DNA of 64,000 nt from Escherichia coli (GTDB lineage: Bacteria; Pseudomonadota; Gammaproteobacteria; Enterobacterales; Enterobacteriaceae), in NCBI RefSeq assembly GCF_003790525.1, contig NZ_CP033635.1; one strand, 5' to 3'. A program made the position numbers and the translations under genes. The number at the start of each line of letters is the position of its first letter. Position 1 is the first letter of the stretch. The notes under the pieces are model-generated. The model worked only from the letters and a program-made list of their open reading frames with translations, did no database searches and was not told the origin of the DNA. This document shows, piece after piece, positions 17,917 to 33,757 of the stretch.

Positions 17917-19317
17917 TCAGGTATGTTTAAAGCTGTTCTGCTGGGCAATACCCTGCAGTTTCGGGTGATCGCTGAGATATTTCAGGGAGGCTTTGTAGTC
18001 TTCCAGCAACAGTTCAGCAAAGTCCATTTCGAAGCCGCGACGACACATAATGCGCATCACCACGATGTCAGTGGCTTCACCGCCGAGAGTGAAGGCCGGA
18101 ACCTGCCAGCCGCGCAGACGCAGACGTTCAGAGAGGTCGTAGAGGGTGTATCCCGGATCTTCACCATCTTTCAGTTTGAAGCAAACCGCCGGGATGCCTT
18201 CGTCCGGGCGACCGGTACAGATAAACTCATACGGTCCCAGTTTGGCGATTTCATCCGCCAGATAAGCGGCAACCTGGTAGGAAGCGTTCTGTACTTTGGT
18301 ATAGCCTTCACGACCGAGGCGCAGGAATTCATAGTACTGTGCAATCACCTGACCCGCCGGGCGGGAGAAGTTGATGGCGAAAGTCCCAATCTGACCGCCG
18401 AGGTAGTCAACGTTGAACACCAGTTCCTGCGGCAGCGCTTCTTCATCACGCCAGATAACCCAGCCGCAGCCCAGCGGAGCCAGACCGAATTTATGGCCTG
18501 AAGCACTGATCGATTTCACACGCGGCAGGCGGAAGTCCCAGACGATATCCGGGGCGACGAACGGTGCCAGGAAGCCACCGCTGGCGGCGTCGATGTGCAT
18601 GTCGATGTCGATACCGGTGTCGGCCTGGAATTTATCCAGCGCATCGTGCAGCGGCTGCGGGAACTCATAGTTACCGGTGTAGGTCACGCCGAAAGTCGGC
18701 ACCACGCCGATGGTATTTTCGTCGCAGGCTTCAATCATGCGTTTCGGGTCCATAAACAACTGACCGGGGCGCATAGGGATCTCACGCAACTCCACATCCC
18801 AGTAGCGGGCGAATTTATGCCAGCAGATTTGCACCGGACCGCACACCAGGTTTGGTTTATCCGTTGGTTTGCCTGCAGCTTCCATACGCTTGCGCCAACG
18901 CCATTTCATCGCCATCCCGCCAAGCATACAGGCCTCGGAAGAACCAATGGTGTTGGTGCCAACGGCCTGACCATTTTTCGGCGCAGGCGCATGCCACAGA
19001 TCGGCAACCATGTTTACGCAACGCAGGTCGATGGCTGCGGATTGCGGATATTCTTCTTTGTCGATCCAGTTTTTGTTAATGGATAAATCCATCAACTTGT
19101 GGACGTTTTCGTCGTCCCAGGTCTGGCAGAAAGTGGCCAGGTTCTGACGAGCGTTGCCATCAAGATATAATTCGTCATTGATAATCTGAAATGCGACATC
19201 GTCGCGCATTTCGTGCAGCGGAAAACGTTTTGATTCTGCGATAGTGGAAATAGACTTTGCACCAAAACGTGAATCGAGTAGTTCCGACCTTAAATCCGTT
19301 ACTTGCTTCTTATCCAT
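17917..19317 (-). CDS. gadB: Glutamate decarboxylase beta
   Basis: ORF 17917..19386 trimmed to ATG at 19315-19317 giving [25 protein letters not shown] (466 aa); PLP-dependent decarboxylase ([10 protein letters not shown] lysine motif). Confidence 0.95.
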
Positions 19318-19396
19318 TTTAAACTCCTTAAAATGATTGGATCGCATTAAAAAAGTAGGATTTATCGATAAAGTAAGCAAGTGCAAAGGACTCGTG

Positions 19397-19416
19397 TTTA
19401 AATAACAAAATCCTAA
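19397..19416 (-). promoter_or_regulatory. gad box (GadE/GadX/GadW-responsive element) upstream of gadB
   Basis: Plus strand reads tttaaataacaaaatcctaa, the reverse complement of the recalled 20-bp gad box TTAGGATTTTGTTATTTAAA; sits about 80-100 bp upstream of the gadB ATG in an AT-rich region. Confidence 0.65.
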
Positions 19417-19678
19417 TGTTATTTATCGCGAGATATTATGCGAATTATATTTTATCATTGAAAATCAATATATTATTGAATTCTTGGGTGGTGGCAAGGT
19501 GTTTTATGCTGTTATTTTTATGCACTTTCTACGCCTCCTGAATTATCACGTAAAAATCAGACCTTAAAATATCACTATTAGCACTCGGCTATTATTTTGA
19601 ACGCATTTATAAAATTATTACATAAAAATGGCGAATATTGCTAAAATCCCCGCCAACGAGGTGTTGACGGGGCTGTTA

Positions 19679-22474
19679 TTATTTTGGCAATAATACTCCG
19701 GTATAGGTATTCACCGGATGAGAAAGATATTGTTTAACGGCAGTGTTAACATTCTCTACCGTCATTTGTTTCAATAATTGCTCCTGCTCAGTCCATGCTG
19801 CAGGATCGTCATATTGAATAAGACTATTTACAATGGTGTTCGCTAATTGTTGAACGCTACGCTGTTGGATATCGAGGCTGCGCTGAACGTTTTGCTGGTA
19901 TTCATTCAGTTCTTGCTCACTGATCCCTTTAGCCAGGCGCTTAACCATCACTTCATTCGCTAACGTTAACAGTTCATCATGTCGTTCTGGTTGACAAGTA
20001 AAAGCCAGCAAATGACTGATATCTTTGGCCTGAGGATCAACCGAGAGGCGAGAAGAAACGCTGTATGCTCCAGATGCCTGTTCACGAATATTAACGCGTA
20101 GATCTTTTGCCAGTGCGACGTTAAAAGCATCGAGCGCCATACGCGTCTCCAGATTTACAGGTGTCCGGGAATCATAACGCTTCCACTGTGAAACCTGTGC
20201 CACAGGTTCATTTTGTTCTTTTACAGTAACCGATGCGTTGTCCGTCGCGCGAGTTAATGGTTTACCTGCGGCTAATGGCGAATCAGAGTGTTTGATTGAT
20301 CCTAAGTAACGCGTAATTAACGCCACGAGTTTGTCTTCTGCGACATTACCGACAATGACAAAGGTGATATCCGCTGGAGATGAAAACAACTGGCGATCGG
20401 CAGCCAGCGCATCTGCGGCAGTAAACTGTGCAATCTGATTTTCTTGCAGTAATTTCGTGCGGTCATCAGCATAGCGCGTCTCATACATCTGCTGGGCGAA
20501 TTTCTCCGCTGGACGCTGGTCGAGCGTTTTCAACGCCTGAATTTGAGCATTTTGTAGCGATGCCCAAATATTATCGTTAATCGTGCTGTGGGTGATTCGC
20601 TGGTTAATCAACTGGAAACCAGGTTCAGGGTTATTAGTCCGCGCGCTAACAGAGAGCAATGTATTCATGCCACTGACTTTACTGCTCATGGTTACCGAGT
20701 TTTCCGCACTCCAGCGTTTCAGGCTGGAAGAGGAGAGTTCACCAACGCCGCTTCCGCTTACTGCTTTATTTGCCAGCGCGATAAGTGATTTTTGCTGCGC
20801 AGGGAAACTTAAATCGCCTTTATTAGATACGGCAGTAATTTGTAGCTTTTGCTCTTCACCCGCGGATTTTGCCAGAATAACCCTGGCACCATTGGAAAGT
20901 GTTAATGATGTCAGATTCTCAGCCAGCGTTTCTTTGCTGCTAATTTCCGCCTGTGGGTCAGCGTCTACTGTTAACGATAAATTTCTGCCTGGGAAGATGT
21001 AAGCCGCCAGCTTTTTGTTGGCGTACTCTTTTTCCAGCGCCAGGATAGCCGCAGGAGACAATGCTTTTTTGGCGGCAACCTCATTGTTTACCATTTGCTC
21101 CCAAAATGCGTCCTGGTTCTTTCTTAACTGCTGCCATTTTTCCGCCAGACTTTGCACGGTAATTTGCTGCCACAGACGTTTCGAAAGTTGATATGTCTCT
21201 TCCGGCGACAAGAACGGCGTATTATTTAATGAGCTGGATGCCAGGCGACTGGTCAGCATACGTAAATCACGCTCAGCTTGCTGATCAACCGCATTTTTCA
21301 GCCAGGTAAGGCGGGTAGATTTAACATCATCGAGTTCTTCAGCAGAAAAGCCATGCTGATCAATGGTTGCCAACTCTGCCATTAATGCATTCGCAGCATC
21401 CTGCATATTATCGTCTTGTGCATTTACACGGAAAAACAGCGACTGATAATCGGGTGCAATTTTGACGCTGCGCGCAGTGCCGCCAGAAATAGTCTTCAAC
21501 TCGCCCGACTGTATGCGTTCTTGCAGACGTTGGTTGAACAGCTGAACTAACATGCTCCATTCAGCTTGTTCGATAAAGCTTTGCTCATCGCTCACTTGCA
21601 CCATTGGCAGGCGATAATAGAGTGCGATGCCGTTCACCCGGTTTTCTTTATCATTGATGATATTAAAGCGCAGGTGGTTTTCGGCTTTTGTCGGCCAGAC
21701 GCGATTTTCAGCTGCTTTGTTAGCCGGAAGCTTACTTAAATTATCCTTTATCAGCGCCAGCGCTTCTTTACTGTCGATATCGCCGACCACAATAAAGGTC
21801 ATATTATTTGGTTGATACCAGCGTTGATAAAATTGGCGCAATTGTGCCGGTGTGACCGTGGCGACGGTATCCATCAGGCCGATAGGTTCACGGTCTAAAT
21901 TACGGGTATTTGCCAGCAGGAAAGGGCGGCGCGCCTGAGAGGTGCGCCATTTTGCATCCTGATGGGCACGCCATTCCTCAGTAATTACGCCACGTTCAGC
22001 GTCTACTTCGAGTTTTTCAAAGGTTGCGGCATTACTCCATTCACTGAAGATTGCCATCACTTGTTGCAGATTTTGTTTCTGCGTAGTCGGCAAACTCACC
22101 TGATACACTGTTTCGTCATAGCTGGTATAGGCATTAACATCGCGACCAAAACGAAGGCCCATTGACTCAAATGTTTCGATGACTTTATTACCCGGCCATG
22201 TTTTTGTGCCGTTAAACATCATATGTTCTACAAAATGAGCCACGCCGCGCTCATTGTCCTCTTCCTGCAATGAACCGGTATGAATTTGCAGCCATAAATT
22301 TACCTGATCCTTTGGTTGAGCATGCGGATAAATCAGATATCGCAAGCCATTGTCCAGTTGCCCGGTAATTAACTTTTCATCCTGCGGTAAGGCGGCGGCA
22401 ATCAGTCGCCCGGGGAGCAACAGAGTTGCCACTAACGTCAGTAAGAAACAGAGGTTTCTCATAATTATCTCCAT
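19679..22474 (-). CDS. pqqL: Periplasmic M16-family zinc metalloprotease PqqL
   Basis: 931-aa ORF with signal peptide; HFVEH inverted zinc-binding motif (HxxEH) near the N-terminus; tandem M16 peptidase domains. Confidence 0.9.
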   Translation of the reverse strand: MEIIMRNLCFLLTLVATLLLPGRLIAAALPQDEKLITGQLDNGLRYLIYPHAQPKDQVNLWLQIHTGSLQEEDNERGVAHFVEHMMFNGTKTWPGNKVIETFESMGLRFGRDVNAYTSYDETVYQVSLPTTQKQNLQQVMAIFSEWSNAATFEKLEVDAERGVITEEWRAHQDAKWRTSQARRPFLLANTRNLDREPIGLMDTVATVTPAQLRQFYQRWYQPNNMTFIVVGDIDSKEALALIKDNLSKLPANKAAENRVWPTKAENHLRFNIINDKENRVNGIALYYRLPMVQVSDEQSFIEQAEWSMLVQLFNQRLQERIQSGELKTISGGTARSVKIAPDYQSLFFRVNAQDDNMQDAANALMAELATIDQHGFSAEELDDVKSTRLTWLKNAVDQQAERDLRMLTSRLASSSLNNTPFLSPEETYQLSKRLWQQITVQSLAEKWQQLRKNQDAFWEQMVNNEVAAKKALSPAAILALEKEYANKKLAAYIFPGRNLSLTVDADPQAEISSKETLAENLTSLTLSNGARVILAKSAGEEQKLQITAVSNKGDLSFPAQQKSLIALANKAVSGSGVGELSSSSLKRWSAENSVTMSSKVSGMNTLLSVSARTNNPEPGFQLINQRITHSTINDNIWASLQNAQIQALKTLDQRPAEKFAQQMYETRYADDRTKLLQENQIAQFTAADALAADRQLFSSPADITFVIVGNVAEDKLVALITRYLGSIKHSDSPLAAGKPLTRATDNASVTVKEQNEPVAQVSQWKRYDSRTPVNLETRMALDAFNVALAKDLRVNIREQASGAYSVSSRLSVDPQAKDISHLLAFTCQPERHDELLTLANEVMVKRLAKGISEQELNEYQQNVQRSLDIQQRSVQQLANTIVNSLIQYDDPAAWTEQEQLLKQMTVENVNTAVKQYLSHPVNTYTGVLLPK

Positions 22475-22518
22475 GCGAAAACCGGGCGAATTTACCCGGT
22501 TAAGTAAAATCCGAACTA

Positions 22519-24891
22519 TTAAAATTTCATGCTGACATCAAGCCAGAAAGTACGGCCACTGGCGTAGGTCGCCACACCGGTATTCGTTGTATCAACAGCG
22601 GTTTTGCTATCCAGTACATTGAGAATATCGGCACTGAACGTCAGGTTTTGTTGTTTCAGAAATTGTGGCGTCCAGGACAAGCGGGTGTCCCAGGTCAGGC
22701 TGCTATCCAGTTTTTCGTCAACATACTGCTTGTAATCTGAATATTCGCTGATGTATTGCGCATTCGTCTTACCCAGGATAATGCGAGCTTTACGCGCTTC
22801 TTGCCAGGTCAGCGTATTCGCCCACACCAACCCGCTCGGTTGATGCGTGAAATCCATGTTTAAGGAGATCTTTAATGGATTATTAAAATCCGCCACTGGA
22901 ACGCTATCGTAAGAGACCAGATTACCGTTATAAACCACCTGGTTATCACCGGTATTGCTCTCCTCATAACCATTGTTTAACGACAAGTTGCCCTTGCTCT
23001 TGATATAGCTAAAGACAATTTGCGGGTTAATATCTACCTGGCTGATATGCAGGGGTTCGGCCAGTTCAAAACTGAGGTTGAACGAATGCGTTTTGGTTTT
23101 ACCGTCGTTGTTATATTCAGTAATGGTGGTTTTAGTCGCGCTGTCGGTACGACTGCTTTTACTGATTTGATCATGCGCTTCACGGTAAACATAGTTTGCA
23201 CGCGCAATAACGTTCTTACCGATTTTCTGCTGCAACCCCATTGCCAGTTCATCGTTATAAGGCGTTTTCAAATCCTGATAACGCGTCAGGGTTTTATTGC
23301 CTGATACCGATTCCGTCCAGCTATTGCGGATATCACGTAATCCCATATCAAGAATATTCCCGCCATAGTAACGGTTATAACCTGCGGTAATCATTGAGGT
23401 TTGATCAGCAAAAATATCCCATTCCGTCATAAAGCGCGGGGAGATATTGTGGTTTGACAGATAGTTGTCATAGTCATACCGCACGCCGGGCATTAATGAC
23501 ACATTACGCCAGCTAATGCGATCCGCCATATACAGCGTGTAGTTGTCAATTCCCAGGCTGCCTTTACCTTTATGGTAAATGGTATGGTTAGTTTTCTTTC
23601 CGGCAGCATTAATCACATAGGATTCAGACTGGTTATGGCGTTCAGTCCATGCATCGGAATAGATGTATTCCGCGCCGAAGTAGGGTTGATGCGAAACATT
23701 ACCCACGGTGAATTTTTGCCAGTCCAGGCGTGTTTTGAAGGTGTAATTATCTACAGCCTGGGAAATGTGTCCTAATCCGCCACGGGTGCAACGCCCTGTA
23801 ATATCACCATATGTACATGAAAGTTCGGTGTACCAGATGTCATGATCGTGACGGGTATAATCACTAATATGATCCCAACCAACGGTGGTACGCAGTTTGG
23901 CCCATGCGAGCTGGGTATCCATATCCCATGCCAGACCATAGGATTTATTACCCATTTCGCGATCAGACTCCGGGAAGGTGCTGGTATTATAATCACGGCT
24001 GGAGCCGGTATATTTTAAGGTTAAATCGTGGGTAAAGCGGTCGCTGGCAAACCAGGTAAATTTGCTCAATGCAGTATCGATAACGTTTTTATACTGTGCC
24101 CGGCCGGCGACAATGCCGTCATTCGAAACATAATCCGCGCGGGTGATATCAGACTGGCGGCGCGATAAACCGGCGGTAACGCCAAAGTTATCAGCGAGTT
24201 CCTGATTAAACGACAAGGTATAAAAGTTCTTTTTAAAATCTGGAGAGTAATAAGTACTTCCTGAAGAACCTTGATTAAATGCGCTCTTGTTATTCTCATC
24301 GATATGCGATGTTAACCAGTCCGAACGCGTAGTGCGATAACCCAGTTTCACGCTGCTATCATCAGCGTTGAAGCGTTTGATCTTTGCATCAATTACCCCG
24401 CCATTGAAGCGACCGAATTCAACCGGCACAAAACTGTCATAAAGCGTCACATTGTCCAGTAAGCTGACATCAAGATAATACCCCTGTGACATCCCGCTAA
24501 TATTGGTTGCACTACTGGCATCGGACTCATTCGCTGGGTTCAGGTTATTCGTTGCACTAATACCGTCAATCAAATAGGCATTCTGGTAGGGCGACGCACC
24601 GTGAATAGAGATTTTCTCCGGGCGAATATCTCCCTGGTTCAATGAGGTACTTTGCGTTGAATCCATGCGTACCGCAGGGTTGGTTCTCAGCAGATCGCTG
24701 ATATTGCCATTCCCGGTCGGTAAACGCTCGATGCTTTCACTGGTGTAATGCGTGTTGCCGTTTACGGGTACAGGGACAGGAGCATAGACCGTCATCTCTT
24801 CAAAAACATGCATGTACATATTTTTGTCATCGACGGCCTGCGCTACATCAGCGCCACATAAAATGACGCCAGGAATAAGAACTCGCTTCAT
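22519..24891 (-). CDS. yddB: TonB-dependent outer-membrane receptor YddB
   Basis: 790-aa ORF; signal peptide, plug-like N-terminal region, and C-terminal aromatic residue (WLDVSMKF) typical of TonB-dependent barrels. Confidence 0.88.
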   Translation of the reverse strand: MKRVLIPGVILCGADVAQAVDDKNMYMHVFEEMTVYAPVPVPVNGNTHYTSESIERLPTGNGNISDLLRTNPAVRMDSTQSTSLNQGDIRPEKISIHGASPYQNAYLIDGISATNNLNPANESDASSATNISGMSQGYYLDVSLLDNVTLYDSFVPVEFGRFNGGVIDAKIKRFNADDSSVKLGYRTTRSDWLTSHIDENNKSAFNQGSSGSTYYSPDFKKNFYTLSFNQELADNFGVTAGLSRRQSDITRADYVSNDGIVAGRAQYKNVIDTALSKFTWFASDRFTHDLTLKYTGSSRDYNTSTFPESDREMGNKSYGLAWDMDTQLAWAKLRTTVGWDHISDYTRHDHDIWYTELSCTYGDITGRCTRGGLGHISQAVDNYTFKTRLDWQKFTVGNVSHQPYFGAEYIYSDAWTERHNQSESYVINAAGKKTNHTIYHKGKGSLGIDNYTLYMADRISWRNVSLMPGVRYDYDNYLSNHNISPRFMTEWDIFADQTSMITAGYNRYYGGNILDMGLRDIRNSWTESVSGNKTLTRYQDLKTPYNDELAMGLQQKIGKNVIARANYVYREAHDQISKSSRTDSATKTTITEYNNDGKTKTHSFNLSFELAEPLHISQVDINPQIVFSYIKSKGNLSLNNGYEESNTGDNQVVYNGNLVSYDSVPVADFNNPLKISLNMDFTHQPSGLVWANTLTWQEARKARIILGKTNAQYISEYSDYKQYVDEKLDSSLTWDTRLSWTPQFLKQQNLTFSADILNVLDSKTAVDTTNTGVATYASGRTFWLDVSMKF

Positions 24892-24928
24892 TTATTTATA
24901 TCTCCGTACAGCAGGGCTTTTATTGTTT

Positions 24929-26614
24929 TTATAAAACCGCGCTAATGTCACAAATATCATCGGCCAGGTTCCAGACACCGGGTTGATGTGTAACCATAAT
25001 GACGCCGCTTGTGGGGAGTTTTTCTCGCACTAAACGCAGTAAGCGGATTGCCTCTTGTTCCTCAAGATGAGAGGTAGTTTCGTCAAGAAATATCCATTTC
25101 GGACGTCGTAAAATTAATCGAGCCAGGGCGATACGTTGTTTTTCGCCGCTGGAAAGAATATCTCCCCAGCGATCGTGGTCATGAATACGCGTAGCCAATT
25201 TCCCCAGCCCAACCTGATGCAGTACTTCACTCAACGATTTATCGTCTACGGACAGGGGAAGTGCTTTACAAATAATCTCTTTCAGTAAGCCGGTTTTGAT
25301 TAACGGTGTTTGTGACACATACCAACTGTCAGCAGGAGAAGAAATATCACCTTTAAACCACGGCCAGCAGTGGGATAATGTTTTAAGCAGTGTGGTTTTT
25401 CCCGTACCAGAGTAACCTTTCAGCAATAGCCATTTGCCTGGCAAAACATGAAAGTTCAGGTTCTCTAATATGATCTTATTATCAGGAGTACGAATACTCG
25501 CGTCAGCCACTTGTACCGCATGTTGGCAATTTTTAGGCTTATTCGTAGGGCGCTGTTCGGTGAGTTGATGGAACTCAGACAAGCGATCGATAACCGCAGC
25601 CAGTACAGCAAGTTCATCATATTTATAAATAAACCAGCTTAAATTGTTCGATACCAGCATAAATGCCTGGCGCGATTTCATCAGTCCGCCCAGATTGATC
25701 TGTCCGCTAATAAACTGCGGCAATAACAGAAAGTAGGGAAGAACGCTAAGCGAGCGCGAATAAATATTCTGCCAGTAATCAAGCCACCGCTGACGATTCA
25801 TTAAACGATGCCAGTTCTCTTTAATGGTATGAAAATTTTCGCTCAACTCCTGGCGTTGTAGAGACTCAGCATTGCTTAGCGCAATCAGTTCTGCCTGCTT
25901 ATTATGCTGCACAAGATTAGTTCGAAATGTCGCTTCGCTACGTTGTTTTTCCACATTAAGCGGACGAATACGTTTACCAACCTTATGGGTAAATAAAGTT
26001 CCACCGATCACAATGAGCACGACGGTATAGACCATATACCCCTGGATATTCCATTCAGTTCCACCAACAGTGAATGAGAGCGTACCCGCGCTTTGCCAAA
26101 GAATAACGGTAAAGGTGATCAGCATGCTAAGTGACTGGATGAAGCCAAATGAAAGACTGAGCGTTTTGCTGATCAGTAAGAGAATGTCTTCAGCGATACG
26201 TTGGTCAGGGTTATCTGTATTTTTATGCTCGCCGTAGATCTGCGTGAAGTAGTAGTTTTTATCTGCAAACCAGCGATTAAGGTAGTAATCTGTTAACCAT
26301 TCGCGCCAGCGAATAGTCAGTAGTTTAATTAACCATGTTTTGTTTACGGATATTAATACAAAGATCCCCAGCAGGGCAGGGAACCAAAGGACAAGCTGCC
26401 AAAGCTTATCAGTTTCTTTCTGGCTTAGCGCATTGAAAAAATCATTATTCCAGTCGTTTAACCAGACCTGAATTTTAACCACGCCAAGGATCATGGCGAG
26501 GATAATAATGATTAACAACACTGAAGTTTTATTATTCTTACGCAGCCAAAAGGGCTTCAGCAGACAGAGATACTTTGCTATCAACATACAAAACGTAATG
26601 GGAATGGTTATCAT
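24929..26614 (-). CDS. yddA: ABC transporter (fused permease/ATPase) YddA
   Basis: 561-aa ORF; N-terminal transmembrane domain; C-terminal NBD with Walker A GYSGTGKTT, signature SSGEKQR, Walker B IFLDETTS. Confidence 0.88.
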   Translation of the reverse strand: MITIPITFCMLIAKYLCLLKPFWLRKNNKTSVLLIIIILAMILGVVKIQVWLNDWNNDFFNALSQKETDKLWQLVLWFPALLGIFVLISVNKTWLIKLLTIRWREWLTDYYLNRWFADKNYYFTQIYGEHKNTDNPDQRIAEDILLLISKTLSLSFGFIQSLSMLITFTVILWQSAGTLSFTVGGTEWNIQGYMVYTVVLIVIGGTLFTHKVGKRIRPLNVEKQRSEATFRTNLVQHNKQAELIALSNAESLQRQELSENFHTIKENWHRLMNRQRWLDYWQNIYSRSLSVLPYFLLLPQFISGQINLGGLMKSRQAFMLVSNNLSWFIYKYDELAVLAAVIDRLSEFHQLTEQRPTNKPKNCQHAVQVADASIRTPDNKIILENLNFHVLPGKWLLLKGYSGTGKTTLLKTLSHCWPWFKGDISSPADSWYVSQTPLIKTGLLKEIICKALPLSVDDKSLSEVLHQVGLGKLATRIHDHDRWGDILSSGEKQRIALARLILRRPKWIFLDETTSHLEEQEAIRLLRLVREKLPTSGVIMVTHQPGVWNLADDICDISAVL

Positions 26615-26904
26615 TAGCGAAAATTTATTGTGCCATCCAATGATTATCTATGGCAATGATATACTGATGAAATTTATTTAAGTATCATTTAACAATATGA
26701 AATATAAAGAAATATTTTATTTTCAGTGGTTATGGTTATGCTATTGATAATCAAGGGTATTGCTAATGCCCTGACGCATACCTCGTAAGCCAGGATTTTC
26801 GCAAAGGAAGATGATGAAGACGAAACACCCGACAGGAATTTATGTCGGGTGCCTTGTTAAGGTCATAAGAAGGAGGCTAAGAATGGAGCTAAGGGGGAGC
26901 GTTA

Positions 26905-28062
26905 TTAATTATTCTCCATTTGTTTTGCAACATCCATAATGTGGTAAAGCGGTACTCTGTTCTTAGCTAACTCCACCATGGCGTTCATATAAGGTACCAT
27001 GGTTGAAAAAAGGATTTTATAACCTTCGCAAAAATAGGAAACAGTCTCATTGTTTACTTTAGTAATACGATGCTTAGGGCAACCACCATTGCAGATAGGT
27101 TTATATGCACATTGCTGACATTTCGCTGAAATCCGTTTTTTTTGCGCTGTCAGTTGAACACTGTTCATCGTTTTGAGTTCAGATTTATTAATGTTTCCAA
27201 TTTTGTACTGTGGATAGACAAAATGGTCGCATTCGTAAATGTCTCCATTACTTTCAACAACCAGATTATCCTTGCAGGACGCCTGGAAAATACAACTGGT
27301 ATGCCCATTCCCCAAAAAACGGCTGACAAAGCTTTCAAACTGACGGATGAAAATTTCACCCACATCGTTTTTAACCCATTGCATAAAAATGGTTGACATA
27401 AACTTGCCATAAGCCGTAGGAGGCACAGAAAAATCAATGATACGGAATGTGTTCTCACTATGACCACTGAAATCAATATTCGGCGTCCCGGTTTCGAGCA
27501 ATTCGATAAATTGCATATGTTTACTGCCGATAGATTTTAAAAAATGATAAACCTCAAGAGGGTAATGGACATTAACGTTATTAATGACGGTTAACGTATT
27601 AAACTCTACTTGATATGATTTCAGACGCTCGATGGCTGCTATCACTTTTGCAAAAGTACCGTTACCTGAATTACTGCGTCTGTAACGGTCATGTAGCTCC
27701 TGGGGTCCATCGATCGAGATACCAACCAGAAACTCATGTTCTTTGAGAAAGGCACACCATTCATTATTCAATAAAATGCCATTCGTTTGTAATGCATTAA
27801 AAATACGTTTTTGGCCTGCATAGCGTTGTTGATAGTGAATAACTTTACGGAAAAAATCCAGGCCAGCCAGAGTGGGTTCACCGCCTTGCCAGGTAAAATA
27901 GACCTGATTGCCAGACGCTGCGATATATTGTTTGATGAACTCTTTCAGAGTGCTGTCATCCATCCATTTTTCATGAGTAAACTGCGACTCTTTTTCAAGG
28001 TAAAAACAGTAATCACATTTGAGATTACATTGAAAACTGGAGGGCTTGGCTGTAACGTGCAT
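26905..28062 (-). CDS. ydeM: Radical-SAM anaerobic sulfatase-maturating-enzyme homologue YdeM
   Basis: ORF trimmed to ATG at 28060-28062 giving [21 protein letters not shown] (CxxxCxxC radical-SAM cluster motif); C-terminal Cys-rich SPASM-like region [18 protein letters not shown]. Confidence 0.85.
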
Positions 28063-28113
28063 CGCTATCTCGCTCAATAAGGCGGCGGAAAAATCCGCCG
28101 CATGAAGGTTTAG

Positions 28114-29796
28114 TTATTTCGCTTCGCTTAGTGCTTTCTTGATATTGTTAAACTTCTCCTGATTTACCTCGCTAAGTGGTGGTTGGCTGCTGTCGATAAA
28201 CTCTCTTACCACGCCTTGCATCTCTTTAACGACCTGCGGATTGGCGGCGGCAAGGTTATCTTTTTGCTGTAGATCCGTCAGTTTGTATAGACCTAACTGA
28301 TTGTTTTCTACTGTATAGACAAGCGAATAATCGTTATTTCTTACCGTATAAGAGAATTGGCTTAAATCCTCGGTGTTGGGGTTATGCGGGTAATCGTCTG
28401 ACTGATGGCGGACAAATTTGTGGTAATTATCCCAGAATGGAATATTTTCCTCGTCAAACCAGTGAGAATAAGAGGTTATCCAGGTCAGATTTTTATGTGG
28501 CTCGCCTTGTTTCTTATCTTGCAACCACGGCAGCAAGGAAACGCCATCCAGCTTAAGGTCTTTTGGAATGCTGATATCGGCTGCATCAAGAGCTGTCGGG
28601 TAGAAATCCATTGCGGAAATCAGCTTGTCATAATTACCGGGTTGAAGTTTTCCTTTCCACCACATAAACATTGGGGTGTGAGTACCGCCAGGATAGGTCT
28701 GACTCTTATAGCCTTTTTGCGCCCCGTTCAGCGGCAGAGGACCATCGATAACCGCACCATTATCGGAGGTAAAGAGAATAATAGTATTGTCATACTGTCC
28801 GTTTTTCTTCAGTTGTTCGAGAATGCGTTTTACACCCTGATCAACAGAATAAACGGAAGCGTAGTAGTTATCTGCTGTTTGACTACCGGTATTAAATTGC
28901 TTCTGATATTGCTCCGGTGCAGGATTATCATTTGGCAGGTGCGGAGCATTATAAGCCAGGTAAAGCATAAAAGGCTGGTCAAGTGTTTTGGCACGATCAA
29001 CAACGCCAATTGCCTCATCGGTTAACTGATCGCTGATATAACCTTTTGCGGGGACGCGTTCACGGTTTTTGAACAGTGAAGGGGAGTTGTAATATGCCGT
29101 TCCTGCAGCGTGGAATCCCATAAAGTAATCAAAGCCACGGTTTTGAGGTTGCCATTCTTCCGCAGAAAATGTGGTGAAGTTGTCATGATAGTCACGCGTT
29201 TGTTTATCTTCCGGTACCGGCACATTACTGATTTTTGACAAGTGCCATTTACCTACTGCTGCAGTGTAATAACCATGATTCTGGAATAATTCAGGCAAGA
29301 AAGTTTCTGTTAGCGGAATACCATCCTGAGCATCGGTATTGGAATAGACACCAAAGCGGGCGGGCGCTCGACCGGTCATTATTGCAGCGCGGGAGGGGCC
29401 GGAAACACCGTGCGCCACATAGCCGTTAGTAAAACGCACGCCTTCATCCATTAATGAAAGGAGCGTCGGCGTTGATTTTTGCGCAGCTTCAATGGCTTTA
29501 TCTATCCCTATTTTGTAGGTATCGACAACTTCACGATTTTCCATTGTTTTTGGGTCAAAAGATCCCTTATCAAAAGGAAGTTGTCCATAACCAAGATCAT
29601 CCATGGTCAGTACGATAATATTTGGCTTTCCTTTGGTACTGTATTCAGTCGGCGTAAAGTCTGAGAAAGCAACGTTTGTTTTGGTTGCTTTCAGCTTTAC
29701 ATCATCTGCCGCATGAGCAGCAAATGCAGCCATACCAGATGCCAGTATCAAAGATATCGAGGTACTTACGACACTTTTCTTTAATGCAGACTTCAT
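28114..29796 (-). CDS. ydeN: Ser-type sulfatase YdeN (secreted)
   Basis: ORF 28114..29922 trimmed to ATG at 29794-29796 giving MKSALKKSVVSTSISLILASGMAAFAAHA (signal peptide, 560 aa); sulfatase signature with Ser at the formylglycine position: SGPSRAAIMTGR. Confidence 0.85.
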   Translation of the reverse strand: MKSALKKSVVSTSISLILASGMAAFAAHAADDVKLKATKTNVAFSDFTPTEYSTKGKPNIIVLTMDDLGYGQLPFDKGSFDPKTMENREVVDTYKIGIDKAIEAAQKSTPTLLSLMDEGVRFTNGYVAHGVSGPSRAAIMTGRAPARFGVYSNTDAQDGIPLTETFLPELFQNHGYYTAAVGKWHLSKISNVPVPEDKQTRDYHDNFTTFSAEEWQPQNRGFDYFMGFHAAGTAYYNSPSLFKNRERVPAKGYISDQLTDEAIGVVDRAKTLDQPFMLYLAYNAPHLPNDNPAPEQYQKQFNTGSQTADNYYASVYSVDQGVKRILEQLKKNGQYDNTIILFTSDNGAVIDGPLPLNGAQKGYKSQTYPGGTHTPMFMWWKGKLQPGNYDKLISAMDFYPTALDAADISIPKDLKLDGVSLLPWLQDKKQGEPHKNLTWITSYSHWFDEENIPFWDNYHKFVRHQSDDYPHNPNTEDLSQFSYTVRNNDYSLVYTVENNQLGLYKLTDLQQKDNLAAANPQVVKEMQGVVREFIDSSQPPLSEVNQEKFNNIKKALSEAK

Positions 29797-30112
29797 AAAT
29801 GTTCCTCTTCTTATTGTACTTAATTCCAAAGTAATTTTACGAAGAGAAATAAGTGGATGTAAGTGAAGTGAGTCACATAAAGAGATAGCAGATTTAGCTA
29901 AAAAAGGGAAATAACAGTCCATAAAGCGTTGACATTACTTTCTGTTCTACTAAGTAATTTCTCGCCGATAAACAACTAATCTATTGATATTTAATAAATT
30001 ATTGCATTTTAATGACAAAATGCCGAATTGAGATCATAAATAATCATGCAACAGGTTATGCAAATGCATAAATATGTGATGAATGTCACTTATTTATTTC
30101 AAGAAATATATC

Positions 30113-30148
30113 GCCTAAAAACAACGCGGGGCAGGAAATGGCTGCCCC
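30113..30148 (-). terminator. Bidirectional-looking intrinsic terminator downstream of ydeO
   Basis: Stem ggggcag / ctgcccc (30128..30148), 7-nt loop; T-rich flank on both strands (minus-strand U-tract from the complement of gcctaaaaacaacg). Confidence 0.6.
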
Positions 30149-30196
30149 ATTTAATTCTTACGTAGCGTGTGTGGTTGACTACTCGTTAGCAAATAA

Positions 30197-30958
30197 TCAA
30201 ATAGCTAAAGCACTCATCGTGTTGTCCGTGTTCATACCGGTGTGCCTTTGACAACGGTACTCCTTCGAAACTCTCTTCGGACTGTTGCCGAAATGTTTGC
30301 GGAACGCATAAATAAAATAAGATGTACTCGCATAACCACATTGTTCGGCAATTTTATTGACTGAACCTTCTACGCGTATCAAATTTTTTGCGTGCTGCAT
30401 TCTGGCATCTAAAAGAATCTGTGAGAATGTCGTTTGCTCTTGCTTTAGTTTTTTCTTCAACAGGCTTTCACTGATGTACAGGCAGTCACAAATATCTTTC
30501 AGCTTCCATGGGTGCGCCAGCTTCATGTTGACAATATTTCTCACTTTCCCGGAAACGGATAGCACACCGTTAGTTAATAGTGTAATGAAACCTTTGCATG
30601 CGGCAAAAATAGACAGGCAAGAAAAAAGCAAAAGTTCTGAAAAGTTATGATGATTGCGTTCTTCCGAGTTGAGATAAGCAATCATTTCATTAAGCAATCC
30701 CGTCGGTACATTTGAAGCACGTAAAAACTTCGCAGGAACAGGCACCGTCACTGTCTGGATGTTAGTGCATTGTAGATATTTTTTAATGGTGTTTTCATTA
30801 AATCCGATTTCTTTGAAATGCCGCTCATAAGGTTCAAAATGCGTACGAACAGCGTTATCTACCATCAGGATCTCGCCGTCAGAGAAGGCGTAATCTTTAT
30901 CTAAAATGTTAGCGTTGAAGGCATGATGAATAAATATAACAGAACAAACGAGCGACAT
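30197..30958 (-). CDS. ydeO: AraC-family acid-resistance regulator YdeO
   Basis: 253-aa ORF MSLVCSVIFIHHAFNANILDKDYAFSDGEILMVD...; C-terminal AraC-type HTH (AEQCGYASTSYFIYAFRKHFGNSPK). Confidence 0.93.
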   Translation of the reverse strand: MSLVCSVIFIHHAFNANILDKDYAFSDGEILMVDNAVRTHFEPYERHFKEIGFNENTIKKYLQCTNIQTVTVPVPAKFLRASNVPTGLLNEMIAYLNSEERNHHNFSELLLFSCLSIFAACKGFITLLTNGVLSVSGKVRNIVNMKLAHPWKLKDICDCLYISESLLKKKLKQEQTTFSQILLDARMQHAKNLIRVEGSVNKIAEQCGYASTSYFIYAFRKHFGNSPKRVSKEYRCQRHTGMNTDNTMSALAI

Positions 30959-31032
30959 TTTATCTCCTTAAAACAATAAAGTTTTTATCGATACTTTTTT
31001 AACATTTCACATTTATAATTTGCTGTTTATTT

Positions 31033-31230
31033 TCAGTCTTGCAAACTATTGATAATGAAATGTGTAAGATCTCTTGCCATGCGACCCATTTCTGAAATGC
31101 CCTGCTGATCAATTGCCGAAAAAATGGCTATCAACGTAAGTGTCAGCAACAAGACAACCACAATTACAGACATGATTTCTTTATAGTTGTCTCTTTGCAT
31201 GATTTTGTTTTTCACTGTGGTCGCATGCAT
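31033..31230 (-). CDS. safA: Small membrane connector protein SafA (EvgS-to-PhoQ)
   Basis: 65-aa ORF MHATTVKNKIMQRDNYKEIMSVIVVVLLLTLTLIAIFSAI... with a single transmembrane segment; 74 bp upstream of ydeO (safA-ydeO operon arrangement). Confidence 0.88.
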   Translation of the reverse strand: MHATTVKNKIMQRDNYKEIMSVIVVVLLLTLTLIAIFSAIDQQGISEMGRMARDLTHFIINSLQD

Positions 31231-31341
31231 TTCAAATGTGTTTATTTAGCGGATAACGTTAAAAATCGTTAATCAGTATGATTAATATAACAGGCTGGAT
31301 AAAAGAGGAAATAGGACTGGCACTTCAGTACTGAGCGGAGT

Positions 31342-31359
31342 TTCTTACAACTGTAGGCA
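31342..31359. promoter_or_regulatory. EvgA-box-like 18-bp palindrome upstream of safA-ydeO
   Basis: TTCTTACA-AC-TGTAGGCA: left half matches the recalled EvgA consensus TTCPyTACA exactly, right half TGTAGG matches the inverted half for 6 bases; 112 bp upstream of the safA ATG. Confidence 0.55.
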
Positions 31360-31477
31360 GAGGTTTATATCTTATAGTGTGTAGTTTAATTTAATCCATG
31401 TGAGCAAATTGCGCGATAATAGTCAATGAGGAATTCTTCTGCTGTGCGGATGACAGCAGAAGAAATGAGGAGGCGAA

Positions 31478-33757
31478 TTAATTTGATGGCTCTAATTCAA
31501 CAGGAATACTTTTATAGCCAGGAATGCCACTTAATGGATCGTGGTTATCAAGTGTTAGCATGTGATTCGATTCTGGAAAATAGGTCACCAGTGAGCGGTC
31601 AGCCATAGGGTAAATGACCACTTTTAATCTATCCATGCGTCGTGAGCTACGTTTACCGTCTGGCGTGAGTGCAATAAGATTAACTCTTTCGCCGTTTTTT
31701 ACACGGCAAATTTTAGCTTGTTTAGCACTCATAAAGACCACATCTCGTTGACCGAATACACCTCGATAGCGATCATCCATACCATAAATCGTCGTGTTGT
31801 ACTGATCGTGGCTGCGTACTGTCGCCATGACCAGTTTACTGTTAAACGCTGAAGAGGGATCTTCTAACAGCCCTTTGCTGGTAATGAAATTAGCCTTACC
31901 TGACGGCGTCATCCAGCGCCTTTCAGCAGCTGCGTTTATCAGGTGAAAACCACCAGGATGACGGATGCGCTGGTTATAGTCGGCAAACTCTGGCAGCACA
32001 GCTTCAATGTCATTGCGAATGCGATCATAATCTTCCACCAGATACTCCCAGGCTACCACGCTCTGGGGTAGTGCTGCCTGCGCGATTCCCGCGACCACTG
32101 CACACTCTGATTTCAGCATTACACCGGCGGGTTTTAACACACCACGCGAGGCATGAATCATCGACATTGAATCTTCAACGGTTACCGCCTGCGCACCGCT
32201 TTTTTGCATGTCAATCTCGCTACGTCCCAGAACCGGCAGAATATAGCTATGCCGTGCGGTCAGCAGATGAGAGCGGTTAAGCTTAGTGGCTACGTGTACC
32301 GCCAAATCTAATTGCGTTAACGGTACAGCGCTCGCTTCCCGATCTGGCATTGCCAGCGCAAAGTTGCCCCCCATGCAGATCAATGCTCGAGCTTGCCCCG
32401 TACATATTGCTTGCATGCTGGCAATTGCAGCATGTCCAGGTGCATGAGGTGGGGTGAAGCCATAGCGCTCACCCAGGCGATCCAGAAACTCTGCAGACGG
32501 TTTCTCGGTGATACCGACGGTTCGGTCGCCCTGTACATTAGAGTGACCTCGTAGTGGGCAGATACCCGCACCAGGCTTGCCAATGTTACCTTTCATCAAC
32601 AGCAGATTGACCAGTTGCTGTACGTTCTGGGTACCATGTTCGTGCTGAGTGATCCCCATTCCGTAACAGATAATGGTTCGTTCGGCAGCGGCATATGCAT
32701 CAGCAAGTTCGGCGATTTGTGTCTGACTTAGTCCAGATATACGTTCGATATCTTTCCACTCGGAATTGAGCACGTCACGGCGTAGCTCGTCAAAGCCGAC
32801 GGTATGCGTTTGAATAAATTCATCATCCAGCAATGAGGGCCGACCTGCGGCGCTTGCAGCATCATCGCGCTCAATTAACAGGCGCATCATTCCCTTGAGC
32901 AACGCCATATCACCACCAATGCGCACGTTGTAGTAGGCACTGGCCAACTGAGTCTCAGAGTTCGTCAGCATTTCAAACGGGTTTTGCGGTGCGGTAAATC
33001 GCTCCAGGCCACGTTCCTGTAGAGGATTGATGGCGATCATTTTCGCTCCCCGTTTCACTAAAGCGCGCAACGAAGTCAACATGCGAGGGTGGTTTGTACC
33101 AGGGTTATGCCCAATGCAAATGACTAAATCGCATTTCTCAAAGTCTTCCAGCAACACGGTCCCTTTACCTACACCGATACTCGCTGCCAAACCCACACTG
33201 GTCGGTTCATGGCACATGTTGGAGCAGTCGGGGAAGTTATTGCTCCCGTATTCACGGGCAAAAAGCTGATAAAGAAAGGCAGCTTCATTGGAAGTGCGGC
33301 CCGAAGTATAGAATTCAACCTGATTGGGATCACTATAGCTTTGAAGGCGTTCGCCAATTTCGTCGAAAGCTTGTTGCCAGCTTAATGGCTTGTAACAGTC
33401 GCTGACGGCATCATATTTCAAAGGCTGGGTGAGACGCCCCGCAGCCTCAAGCTCGTGATCTCCCCAGGTAAGTAATGATTGAACCGTATTCTCAGCAAAG
33501 AAAGAGGCATTTACCTGCTTATCCGTGACTTCCCAGGCGATTGCTTTTGCGCCGTTTTCACAAATGTCGAATGACGCACTGTGCTTAGGATCTGGCCATG
33601 CACAACCCGGACAGTCAAAGCCCTCTGGCTTATTCATGTCAAACATGGCAATAACATCCTGGCGTATATCCATCTGCTTACGTACTGCATTCGCTACGGA
33701 TTTAACAGCACCCCAACCACCGGCAGCCCCCTGGTAGGATTCAATTTTTTTCTTCAT
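31478..33757 (-). CDS. ydeP: Molybdopterin oxidoreductase (formate-dehydrogenase-like) YdeP, acid resistance
   Basis: 759-aa ORF; N-terminal Cys cluster (CPGCAWPDP ... C), molybdopterin oxidoreductase family. Confidence 0.9.

What the first reader, a model, noticed from the sequence alone, without database searches (positions are those of the whole stretch)
19679..26614. pqqL-yddB-yddA: protease, TonB-dependent receptor and ABC exporter as one co-oriented module
Three tightly spaced minus-strand genes (gaps of 44 and 37 bp): a periplasmic M16 zinc protease with an intact HxxEH motif, a TonB-dependent outer-membrane receptor and a fused ABC transporter. The arrangement suggests a coupled uptake-and-degrade system for a peptide or protein substrate, possibly linked to iron acquisition. 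It remains poorly characterised compared with its neighbours.
Basis: inference. Interest (0 to 1): 0.3.

Follow-up and report, generated by a model that had tools for sequence, protein, structure and literature searches.

The report
Known iron-regulated E. coli yddA-yddB-pqqL operon

Summary
Three intact minus-strand genes lie at 19679-26614 with gaps of 44 and 37 bp. They are pqqL (M16 protease, HFVEH at residues 80-84), yddB (TonB-dependent transporter) and yddA (fused ABC transporter). The DNA is 100% identical to E. coli SMS-3-5.

The interpretation matches published work. Grinter 2016 and 2019 describe a Fus-like "protease-associated import system" and solved the structures 6OFR and 6OFS. 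Subashchandrabose 2013 showed co-transcription, derepression in a fur mutant and a fitness role in mice.

Three points needed correcting or adding:
- **Fur box.** At 15/19 it is the best match in the whole window.
- **"ABC exporter".** This label is doubtful. YddA has an SbmA/BacA-type membrane domain, and its closest solved relative is the importer Rv1819c. One paper does report drug efflux.
- **Linkage elsewhere.** The ABC, receptor and protease genes stay together in distant bacteria despite rearrangement. The two closest modules also have Fur boxes upstream.

About 13% of complete E. coli genomes have deleted the operon, through two different junctions. The substrate is still unknown. Verdict: real, ordinary, already known, low interest.

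The parts
24929..26614 (-). yddA: fused ABC transporter (membrane domain plus ATPase domain, 561 aa) with an SbmA/BacA-type membrane domain. First gene of the operon.
   Evidence: ORF. Pfam PF06472, PF05992 and PF00005. Best solved relative is 6TQE (Rv1819c), E 2.8e-66. Intact Walker A, signature and Walker B motifs. Annotated yddA.
22519..24891 (-). yddB: TonB-dependent outer-membrane transporter of the FusA family (790 aa). It has a TonB-box-like EEMTVYA at residues 31-37 and a C-terminal Phe.
   Evidence: ORF. Pfam Plug. PDB 6OFR is this protein; the next hit is the ferredoxin receptor FusA 4ZGV, E 5e-80. N- and C-terminal sequence.
19679..22474 (-). pqqL: periplasmic M16 zinc protease of the FusC family (931 aa, or 927 aa from the ATG at 22462). 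HFVEH lies at residues 80-84.
   Evidence: ORF. Pfam M16 and M16_C. PDB 6OFS/6OFT are this protein; FusC 6B03 follows at E 6.7e-59. Motif and start context.
26600..26618 (-). Fur box GCTAATGATAACCATTCCC, matching 15 of 19 consensus positions and overlapping the yddA ATG (26614-26612).
   Evidence: Best match to the Fur consensus in the whole 64 kb window. A match this good occurs in 1.2% of shuffles of the local AT-rich region and in 17% of whole-window shuffles. It contains the complement of the putative box published for CFT073 (PMC3855560).
26627..26656 (-). Promoter-like site TTGCCA-18 nt-CACAAT with an extended TG. A perfect GATAAT hexamer (26648-26643) lies inside the spacer.
   Evidence: Consensus scan; hexamer scan. 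This is a prediction only; the transcription start site has not been mapped here.
19648..19672 (-). Terminator-like hairpin 7 nt after the pqqL stop codon (10-bp stem, then AUUUU). Probable 3' end of the operon.
   Evidence: Fold: -18.6 kcal/mol, z = -3.7. Coordinates.
26824..26853 (-). Terminator-like hairpin after ydeM. It insulates the yddA promoter from upstream ydeNM transcription.
   Evidence: Fold: -21.1 kcal/mol, z = -5.9, 0 of 200 shuffles fold as well. Coordinates.
22480..22501 (-). Weak hairpin in the yddB-pqqL gap. Its significance is uncertain.
   Evidence: Fold: -12.8 kcal/mol, z = -1.0, which is not distinguishable from shuffles.

Best explanation
The interval is the E. coli yddA-yddB-pqqL operon. 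It is transcribed from one Fur-repressed promoter upstream of yddA and ends at a hairpin just after pqqL.

It most likely works as a Fus-like 'protease-associated import system'. When iron is low, Fur leaves the box that overlaps the yddA start and the operon is expressed. YddB, powered by the housekeeping TonB, takes a small folded protein, probably one carrying iron or a cofactor, across the outer membrane. PqqL, a periplasmic M16 clamshell protease, encloses and cleaves it. YddA, an ABC transporter with an SbmA/BacA-type membrane domain, then carries the released cofactor or peptides into the cytoplasm.

Shown here or in the literature: gene identities, co-transcription, Fur control, periplasmic location and protease activity of PqqL, the FusA-like structure of YddB, and the fitness role in mouse infection.

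Inferred: that a protein is imported, what that protein is, and that YddA works inward.
For: Identity.

Regulation: the best Fur-consensus match in the window lies at the yddA start, beside a promoter-like site. Published support includes derepression in a fur mutant and more than 30-fold induction in urine (PMC3855560), Fur binding upstream with a possible RyhB effect (PMC4676285), and PqqL protein induced by bipyridyl (PMC6793856).

Operon boundaries: hairpins after ydeM and after pqqL, and no structure in the yddA-yddB gap. RT-PCR shows co-transcription.

Functional linkage: the ABC, receptor and protease genes occur together in four other loci. L004 has YddB/YddA/PqqL identities of 61/53/46% in the same order. 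L005 (Orbaceae) has 45/50/40% in the same order. L007 ([Actinobacillus] muris) has 28/33/25% with the ABC gene inverted. L008 has 30/36/27% in the order receptor-ABC-protease. All have different flanking genes and all keep HxxEH. Fur boxes matching 16/19 lie 55-90 nt upstream of the first gene in L004 and L005.

Import direction for YddA: the best solved relative is the importer Rv1819c. A Burkholderia YddA homologue is required for lasso-peptide entry. The YddA clade contains the BclA peptide importers and is ancestral to SbmA. Grinter 2016 calls yddA a FusD homologue.
Against: No substrate is known. PqqL did not cleave human or plant ferredoxins or globins. Deleting yddB or pqqL gave no growth defect in iron-limited LB, even in a strain lacking all other iron TonB-dependent transporters (PMC6793856).

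In CFT073, transcript levels did not respond to dipyridyl alone (PMC3855560).

One study reports that YddA exports norfloxacin, ethidium and other drugs (PMC9728188).

There is no FusB-like dedicated TonB in or beside the operon.

About 13% of complete E. coli genomes have deleted the operon, so it is dispensable in many lineages.
Confidence: 0.6

Rival explanations
1. YddA is a stand-alone ATP-driven multidrug exporter. Its position next to yddB-pqqL reflects shared regulation rather than a shared pathway.
For: Feng 2020 (PMC9728188) found that yddA knockouts are more sensitive to norfloxacin, tetracyclines, rifampicin and ethidium. They also accumulate more dye, and the effect is vanadate-sensitive. 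YddA has the type IV ('exporter') ABC fold, and NCBIfam gives weak matches to CydCD and type I secretion ATPases.
Against: YddA homologues stay adjacent to the receptor and protease through rearrangements in distant taxa, with identities that fall in step. A general drug pump would not be expected to do this. The closest characterised relatives import rather than export. The efflux data are whole-cell knockout phenotypes without reconstitution. The operon is Fur-repressed, so it is barely expressed in the rich medium used for such tests.
Confidence: 0.15
2. The system imports and degrades a protein or peptide for a purpose other than iron, for example amino-acid or cofactor scavenging or sensing a host or microbiota signal. 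Fur would be only one of several inputs.
For: There is no growth phenotype under iron limitation. Dipyridyl alone did not induce transcripts in CFT073, whereas urine did so more than 30-fold. yddB is also induced at 37 C (PMC12890032). YddA's relatives carry peptides and cobalamin.
Against: Fur boxes are conserved upstream of orthologous modules in L004 and L005. Fur binding and fur-mutant derepression are published. PqqL protein rises with bipyridyl in two strains. The founding relative, Fus, is an iron-piracy system.
Confidence: 0.15
3. YddB is an ordinary siderophore receptor, as some automatic annotations state, and PqqL is an unrelated periplasmic housekeeping peptidase.
For: Some RefSeq records name yddB 'TonB-dependent siderophore receptor' (H27 and H30). 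The operon is Fur-regulated.
Against: Apart from YddB itself, the only solved homologue found is the ferredoxin receptor FusA, not a siderophore receptor. The crystal structure shows a cavity of about 28 A sized for a small protein, and yddB gave no benefit in a strain lacking the other TonB-dependent transporters. The protease co-occurs with the receptor across taxa.
Confidence: 0.05
4. PqqL is a PQQ-biosynthesis protease (a PqqF equivalent), as the gene name implies.
For: The name comes from complementation of Methylobacterium pqqE/F mutants (cited in PMC3855560). There is a weak match to TIGR02110 PqqF.
Against: The PqqF model scores 48 bits against a cut-off of 320. E. coli does not make PQQ. 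No other pqq genes are nearby. PqqL is periplasmic.
Confidence: 0.02

Closest known systems
Pectobacterium ferredoxin uptake system Fus (FusA receptor, FusB TonB-like protein, FusC M16 protease, FusD ABC transporter)
   Same: Both have a FusA-family TonB-dependent transporter (4ZGV, E 5e-80). Both have a FusC-family two-clamshell M16 protease with a signal peptide and HxxEH (6B03, E 6.7e-59). Both have a fused ABC transporter, stated to be a FusD homologue in PMC5095587. Both are expressed in response to low iron.
   Different: This operon has no FusB-like TonB gene. The gene order differs (ABC-receptor-protease). YddB is only about 24% identical to FusA (PMC6793856). PqqL does not cleave plant or human ferredoxin, so the substrate is different and unknown.
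SbmA/BacA-BclA-Rv1819c group of inner-membrane importers
   Same: YddA matches Pfam SbmA_BacA and ABC_membrane_2. Its best solved relative is Rv1819c (E 2.8e-66). The YddA clade contains BclA and is inferred to be ancestral to SbmA.
   Different: YddA keeps a complete ATPase domain, unlike SbmA and BacA. Its physiological substrate and direction have not been shown, and one report assigns it drug efflux.
Classical Fur-regulated siderophore receptors with their own ABC importers (for example FepA/FepBCDG)
   Same: Both have a TonB-dependent outer-membrane step, Fur repression and an ABC transporter at the inner membrane.
   Different: This operon has no periplasmic binding protein and no type I/II importer permease. 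It has a dedicated protease. The receptor's binding cavity is sized for a protein.
Pitrilysin (PtrA) and PqqF M16 peptidases
   Same: All share the M16 inverzincin fold and the HxxEH motif.
   Different: PqqL scores far below the equivalog cut-offs: pitrilysin 35 bits against 765, PqqF 48 bits against 320. It groups with FusC instead.

Membership tests
E. coli yddA-yddB-pqqL operon (orthology) | Near-identical sequence, and the same neighbours (gadBC on one side, ydeMN on the other) | tested here: met
   100% identity to SMS-3-5 across 8.5 kb, and 95-99% identity to most of the 5425 matching genomes. The flanks are gadB and ydeM.
Fus-like protease-associated import system | FusA-family TonB-dependent transporter | tested here: met
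   The only PDB hits are YddB itself (6OFR) and FusA (4ZGV, E 5e-80). Plug domain. TonB-box-like EEMTVYA.
Fus-like protease-associated import system | Adjacent FusC-family periplasmic M16 protease with an intact HxxEH motif | tested here: met
   HFVEH at residues 80-84. The solved PqqL chains begin at residue 27, after a hydrophobic N-terminal leader. FusC entries 6B03, 6B05 and 6BRS match at E around 1e-58. Periplasmic location and activity are published.
Fus-like protease-associated import system | Linked FusD-type fused ABC transporter | tested here: inconclusive
   A YddA-type ABC gene is linked to the receptor and protease in 4 of 5 homologous loci examined. I did not compare YddA directly with Pectobacterium FusD; that homology is taken from PMC5095587.
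Fus-like protease-associated import system | Dedicated TonB-like protein (FusB) in the cluster | tested here: not met
   No TonB-like gene lies in the operon or its annotated flanks. One distant homologous cluster (L008) does have a TonB gene plus FecI/FecR-like regulators. Grinter 2019 does not treat FusB as universal in these clusters.
Fus-like protease-associated import system | Iron-responsive (Fur) control | tested here: met
   A 15/19 Fur box lies at 26600-26618. Boxes matching 16/19 lie upstream of the modules in L004 and L005.
Fus-like protease-associated import system | Demonstrated import and periplasmic cleavage of a protein substrate | not testable with these tools
   No substrate is known, and the candidates tested were not cleaved (PMC6793856).
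SbmA/BacA-like (YddA/BclA) type IV ABC transporters | SbmA_BacA or ABC_membrane_2 membrane domain fused to a complete ATPase domain | tested here: met
   PF05992 at 116 bits, PF06472 at 150 bits, PF00005 at 65 bits. Motifs intact.
SbmA/BacA-like (YddA/BclA) type IV ABC transporters | Inward transport of peptides or hydrophilic cofactors | not testable with these tools
   Inferred from relatives only, and contradicted by one efflux report.
PqqF (PQQ biosynthesis protease) | Score above the TIGR02110 cut-off, and a pqq gene neighbourhood | tested here: not met
   48 bits against a cut-off of 320. No pqq genes are nearby.

The most novel reading that the evidence does not exclude
The most novel reading not excluded by the evidence is a complete three-step, trans-envelope protein-piracy route. 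In it, an 'exporter-fold' ABC transporter (YddA) runs inward to take up the peptide or cofactor products that PqqL releases from a host or microbiota protein imported by YddB. A related idea is that the repeated, independent whole-operon deletions, seen in about 13% of E. coli genomes through two junctions, reflect counter-selection. A toxin such as a bacteriocin or lasso peptide might hijack YddB/YddA for entry, as pectocins hijack FusA and ubonodin uses a Burkholderia YddA homologue.
Probability: 0.3. Interest if true: 0.5.

Novelty: already known. Interest (0 to 1): 0.12.

Why it matters
The operon contributes to the fitness of uropathogenic E. coli in bloodstream infection. It is also the E. 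coli example of a widespread but still substrate-less class of protein-importing outer-membrane systems. Finding its substrate, and settling which way YddA pumps, would be real advances, but these are open questions already recognised in the literature. Nothing in this window changes that picture. The sequence analysis here contributes four things:
- the Fur box is present;
- the three-gene linkage and the upstream Fur boxes extend to distant relatives;
- the 'exporter' label is unsafe;
- a sizeable minority of E. coli genomes have lost the operon.

Tried and rejected
- **Rfam.** A permissive search (E up to 0.1) of 19000-27500 on both strands found no RNA family.
- **Promoter and terminator scan.** It gave no more hits than shuffles did (19 against 15.4; 10 against 7.6) and missed both flanking hairpins because their T-runs are short. 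I folded those hairpins directly instead.
- **yddB-pqqL gap hairpin.** It is not better than shuffles (z = -1.0), so I do not claim attenuation.
- **P0039 (Corticibacter).** Its genomic context could not be retrieved.
- **Fur scan of L006, L007 and L008.** It gave nothing in L006, only a 14/19 match inside an ATP-synthase gene far from the module in L007, and only 14/19 matches in L008. Fur-box conservation is therefore shown only for the two closest modules.
- **Junction count for deletion allele A.** The count of 726 is inflated because the tool joins pieces up to 600 bp apart, so allele-B genomes are included. Only the allele-B count of 160 is clean.
- **Literature search for 'YneP'.** It returned only unrelated Bacillus papers.
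- **PQQ-biosynthesis reading.** Rejected on model scores and gene context.
- **Structure prediction.** I did not run prediction of a YddB-PqqL complex. Both crystal structures exist, the model does not require a stable complex, and PqqL does not co-fractionate with the outer membrane.


Full report
**Observation**

The ORF list shows three minus-strand reading frames at the stated coordinates: 19679-22474 (931 aa), 22519-24891 (790 aa) and 24929-26614 (561 aa). The gaps are 44 and 37 bp.

Pfam assigns the following domains:
- the first protein has Peptidase_M16 plus two Peptidase_M16_C stretches;
- the second has a TonB-dependent receptor Plug domain;
- the third has ABC_membrane_2, SbmA_BacA and ABC_tran.

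Other sequence features:
- HFVEH is at PqqL residues 80-84.
- YddA has intact Walker A, signature and Walker B motifs.
- YddB has a TonB-box-like EEMTVYA near its N-terminus and ends in Phe, as outer-membrane barrels do.

Megablast places the region in 5425 of 5426 complete E. coli genomes. It is 100% identical to strain SMS-3-5, where it is annotated pqqL, yddB and yddA between gadB and ydeM.

One detail differs. NCBI starts pqqL four codons further in, at an ATG preceded by GGAG. That would make the yddB-pqqL gap 56 bp rather than 44 bp.

**What it is**

All three proteins are well known.
- The PDB holds YddB itself (6OFR). The only other hit is the Pectobacterium ferredoxin receptor FusA (4ZGV, E 5e-80).
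- The PDB holds PqqL itself (6OFS, 6OFT). FusC entries (6B03, 6B05, 6BRS) are among the next hits.
- YddA has no structure of its own. Its best solved relative is Rv1819c of M. tuberculosis (6TQE, E 2.8e-66), followed by ABCD-family transporters.

**Operon anatomy and regulation**

Scanning the whole 64 kb window with the 19-bp Fur consensus gives a single best match of 15/19 at 26600-26618. This box overlaps the yddA ATG at 26614-26612. It contains the complement of the putative box published for strain CFT073 (PMC3855560).

A match this good appears in 17% of whole-window shuffles but in only 1.2% of shuffles of the local AT-rich region. A promoter-like site, TTGCCA-18-CACAAT with an extended TG, lies at 26656-26627. 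A perfect GATAAT hexamer sits in its spacer. Fur bound at these positions would cover both the promoter and the start of the gene.

Strong hairpins flank the operon. One follows ydeM (26824-26853, -21.1 kcal/mol, z = -5.9). The other follows pqqL (19648-19672, -18.6 kcal/mol, z = -3.7). The yddA-yddB gap is unstructured, and the hairpin in the yddB-pqqL gap is no better than shuffles. This fits a single transcription unit.

Published experiments agree:
- RT-PCR across both junctions shows one mRNA. Expression rises more than 30-fold in urine and is derepressed in a fur mutant (PMC3855560).
- Fur binds upstream, and RyhB may raise transcript levels (PMC4676285).
- yddA belongs to a Fur iModulon (PMC10164565).
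- PqqL protein rises with the chelator bipyridyl (PMC6793856).

**Comparative evidence gathered here**

A search with YddB finds a narrow family: E. coli, E. fergusonii at 87% identity, then scattered relatives at 70% down to 25%. I retrieved the genomic context of five relatives.

| Locus | Source | YddB / YddA / PqqL identity | Arrangement |
|---|---|---|---|
| L004 | sequencing-run assembly (Logan SRR14710919), organism not named | 61 / 53 / 46% | same order, ABC-receptor-protease |
| L005 | Orbaceae | 45 / 50 / 40% | same order, ABC-receptor-protease |
| L007 | [Actinobacillus] muris | 28 / 33 / 25% | receptor-protease, ABC gene adjacent but inverted |
| L008 | unnamed assembly | 30 / 36 / 27% | receptor-ABC-protease, preceded by FecI/FecR-like regulators and a TonB gene |
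| L006 | Oryzisolibacter | 30% (YddB only) | receptor with a cytochrome c peroxidase instead |

The flanking genes differ in every case, and every protease keeps HxxEH. The L006 arrangement matches what Grinter 2019 reported for a neighbouring clade.

Identities of the three proteins fall in step across the loci. L004 and L005 each have a 16/19 Fur box 55-90 nt upstream of the first gene. So the three genes persist together through rearrangement, and iron control is conserved in the two closest modules. This independently supports the 'one module' reading, and it agrees with the remark in Grinter 2016 that yddA is a FusD homologue kept in the cluster despite reshuffling.

**How it most likely works**

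Under iron limitation Fur releases the promoter. YddB, energised by the cell's general TonB, imports a small folded protein. No dedicated TonB gene is present. PqqL captures and cleaves that protein in the periplasm. YddA then moves the released cofactor or peptides across the inner membrane.

Shown by experiment:
- the fold of YddB, including its cavity of about 28 A;
- the periplasmic location, signal-peptide cleavage and narrow peptidase specificity of PqqL;
- regulation of the operon;
- the fitness defect of mutants in mice.

Inferred:
- that a protein is imported at all;
- what that protein is;
- which way YddA pumps.

Evidence against the model:
- PqqL did not cleave the ferredoxins and globins tested.
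- Mutants grow normally in iron-limited LB.
- CFT073 transcripts did not respond to dipyridyl alone.

**The 'exporter' label**

YddA has the type IV ABC fold, often called the exporter fold. One study reports multidrug efflux phenotypes for yddA knockouts (PMC9728188).

Against that, its membrane domain is of the SbmA/BacA type. Its closest solved relative, Rv1819c, is described as a cobalamin transporter. A Burkholderia YddA homologue is needed for entry of the lasso peptide ubonodin. A 2026 study places the BclA peptide importers inside the YddA clade and derives SbmA from a YddA-like ancestor, while calling the family's function unknown (PMC13316013).

Given the conserved linkage to an uptake receptor, import is the better-supported inference. 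The question remains unsettled.

**Comparison with known systems, and novelty**

The closest system is Pectobacterium Fus. This operon meets the receptor, protease and iron-regulation criteria. It lacks FusB. Its FusD homology rests on the literature rather than a test here, and its substrate is different and unknown.

The whole interpretation, down to the Fur box and co-transcription, has been in print since 2013-2019. The finding is therefore real but already known.

**Other things seen**

About 15% of complete E. coli genomes lack most of the operon. Two distinct deletion junctions exist:
- window 20593-26892 is removed in strain AGR6128, with 3 bp of microhomology at the junction;
- window 20842-26794 is removed in WP3-W18-CRE-03 and in LF82, with 5 bp of microhomology.

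Each deletion removes yddA, yddB, the promoter and the 5' two-thirds of pqqL. Together the two junctions account for 726 genomes, of which 160 carry the second allele. Two strains otherwise identical to the window carry an IS1 inside yddA. Loss of all three genes together is consistent with their forming one functional unit that is dispensable in many niches.

Noticed in passing
window 20593-26892 and 20842-26794 (loci L002 and L003): Two different deletions each remove yddA, yddB, the promoter and the 5' two-thirds of pqqL, leaving a pqqL 3' remnant next to ydeM. The junctions have 3-bp and 5-bp microhomology. Together they are found in 726 of 5426 complete E. coli genomes; 160 carry the second allele, including LF82 and NRG 857C. 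I did not map the lineage distribution or investigate the cause.
   Followed up: partly
window 24929-26614 (hits H1 and H2, strains XH992 and 23CRST013): Two genomes that are otherwise 100% identical to the window carry an IS1 inside yddA, splitting it into separately annotated 'ATP-binding cassette domain' and 'SbmA/BacA-like' fragments.
   Followed up: no
window 26498-26522: A second cluster of overlapping Fur-like matches (14/19 and several 13/19, GATAATAATGATTAAC) lies about 100 nt inside yddA. The DNA here encodes a run of Ile and Leu in the first membrane helix. It may be a secondary Fur site or simply AT-rich codons.
   Followed up: no
window 26560-26620: The annotated yddA ATG (26614) has no Shine-Dalgarno sequence. 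The first 11-17 residues do not align with homologues; the Orbaceae protein begins at YddA residue 18. A second in-frame ATG at codon 10 is a possible true start, in which case the Fur box would lie just upstream of the gene rather than over its start.
   Followed up: partly
window 22460-22474: The pqqL start is ambiguous. The longest ORF gives 931 aa (UniProt/PDB numbering), but NCBI annotation uses the ATG four codons later (927 aa), which has GGAG 6 nt upstream.
   Followed up: partly
window 26811-26939 (+ strand): A small ORF of 41-42 codons lies on the + strand, opposite to yddA and ydeM. It is annotated 'protein YneP' or 'hypothetical protein' in many E. coli records. It overlaps the 3' end of ydeM and the ydeM terminator hairpin. 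Deletion allele B retains it and allele A removes most of it.
   Followed up: no
window 26824-26853 and 22480-22501: The ydeM terminator hairpin and the weak hairpin in the yddB-pqqL gap share the loop sequence UAAAUUC, followed by UUUCG after the stem. This is probably coincidence.
   Followed up: no
window 19397-19416: The 20-bp sequence TTAGGATTTTGTTATTTAAA lies in the pqqL-gadB intergenic region, just upstream of gadB. From my own knowledge this is the 'gad box' bound by GadE. The pqqL terminator therefore sits about 230 bp upstream of the acid-resistance promoter on the same strand.
   Followed up: no
window 19000-32000: The operon has 43-47% G+C and its ydeMN-side neighbours 38-44%. Both are below gadB (54%), and the operon is also below the window mean (48%). 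Together with its absence from Salmonella and Citrobacter (PMC6793856), this fits acquisition by an Escherichia ancestor.
   Followed up: partly
L008 5465-15306; L006 8001-11652: A distant module (L008) adds an N-terminal signalling (STN) domain on the receptor, FecI/FecR-like sigma and anti-sigma genes, and a divergently transcribed TonB gene. This makes it closer to the full four-gene Fus layout. Another relative (L006, Oryzisolibacter) pairs the receptor with a di-haem cytochrome c peroxidase and has no protease or ABC gene.
   Followed up: partly
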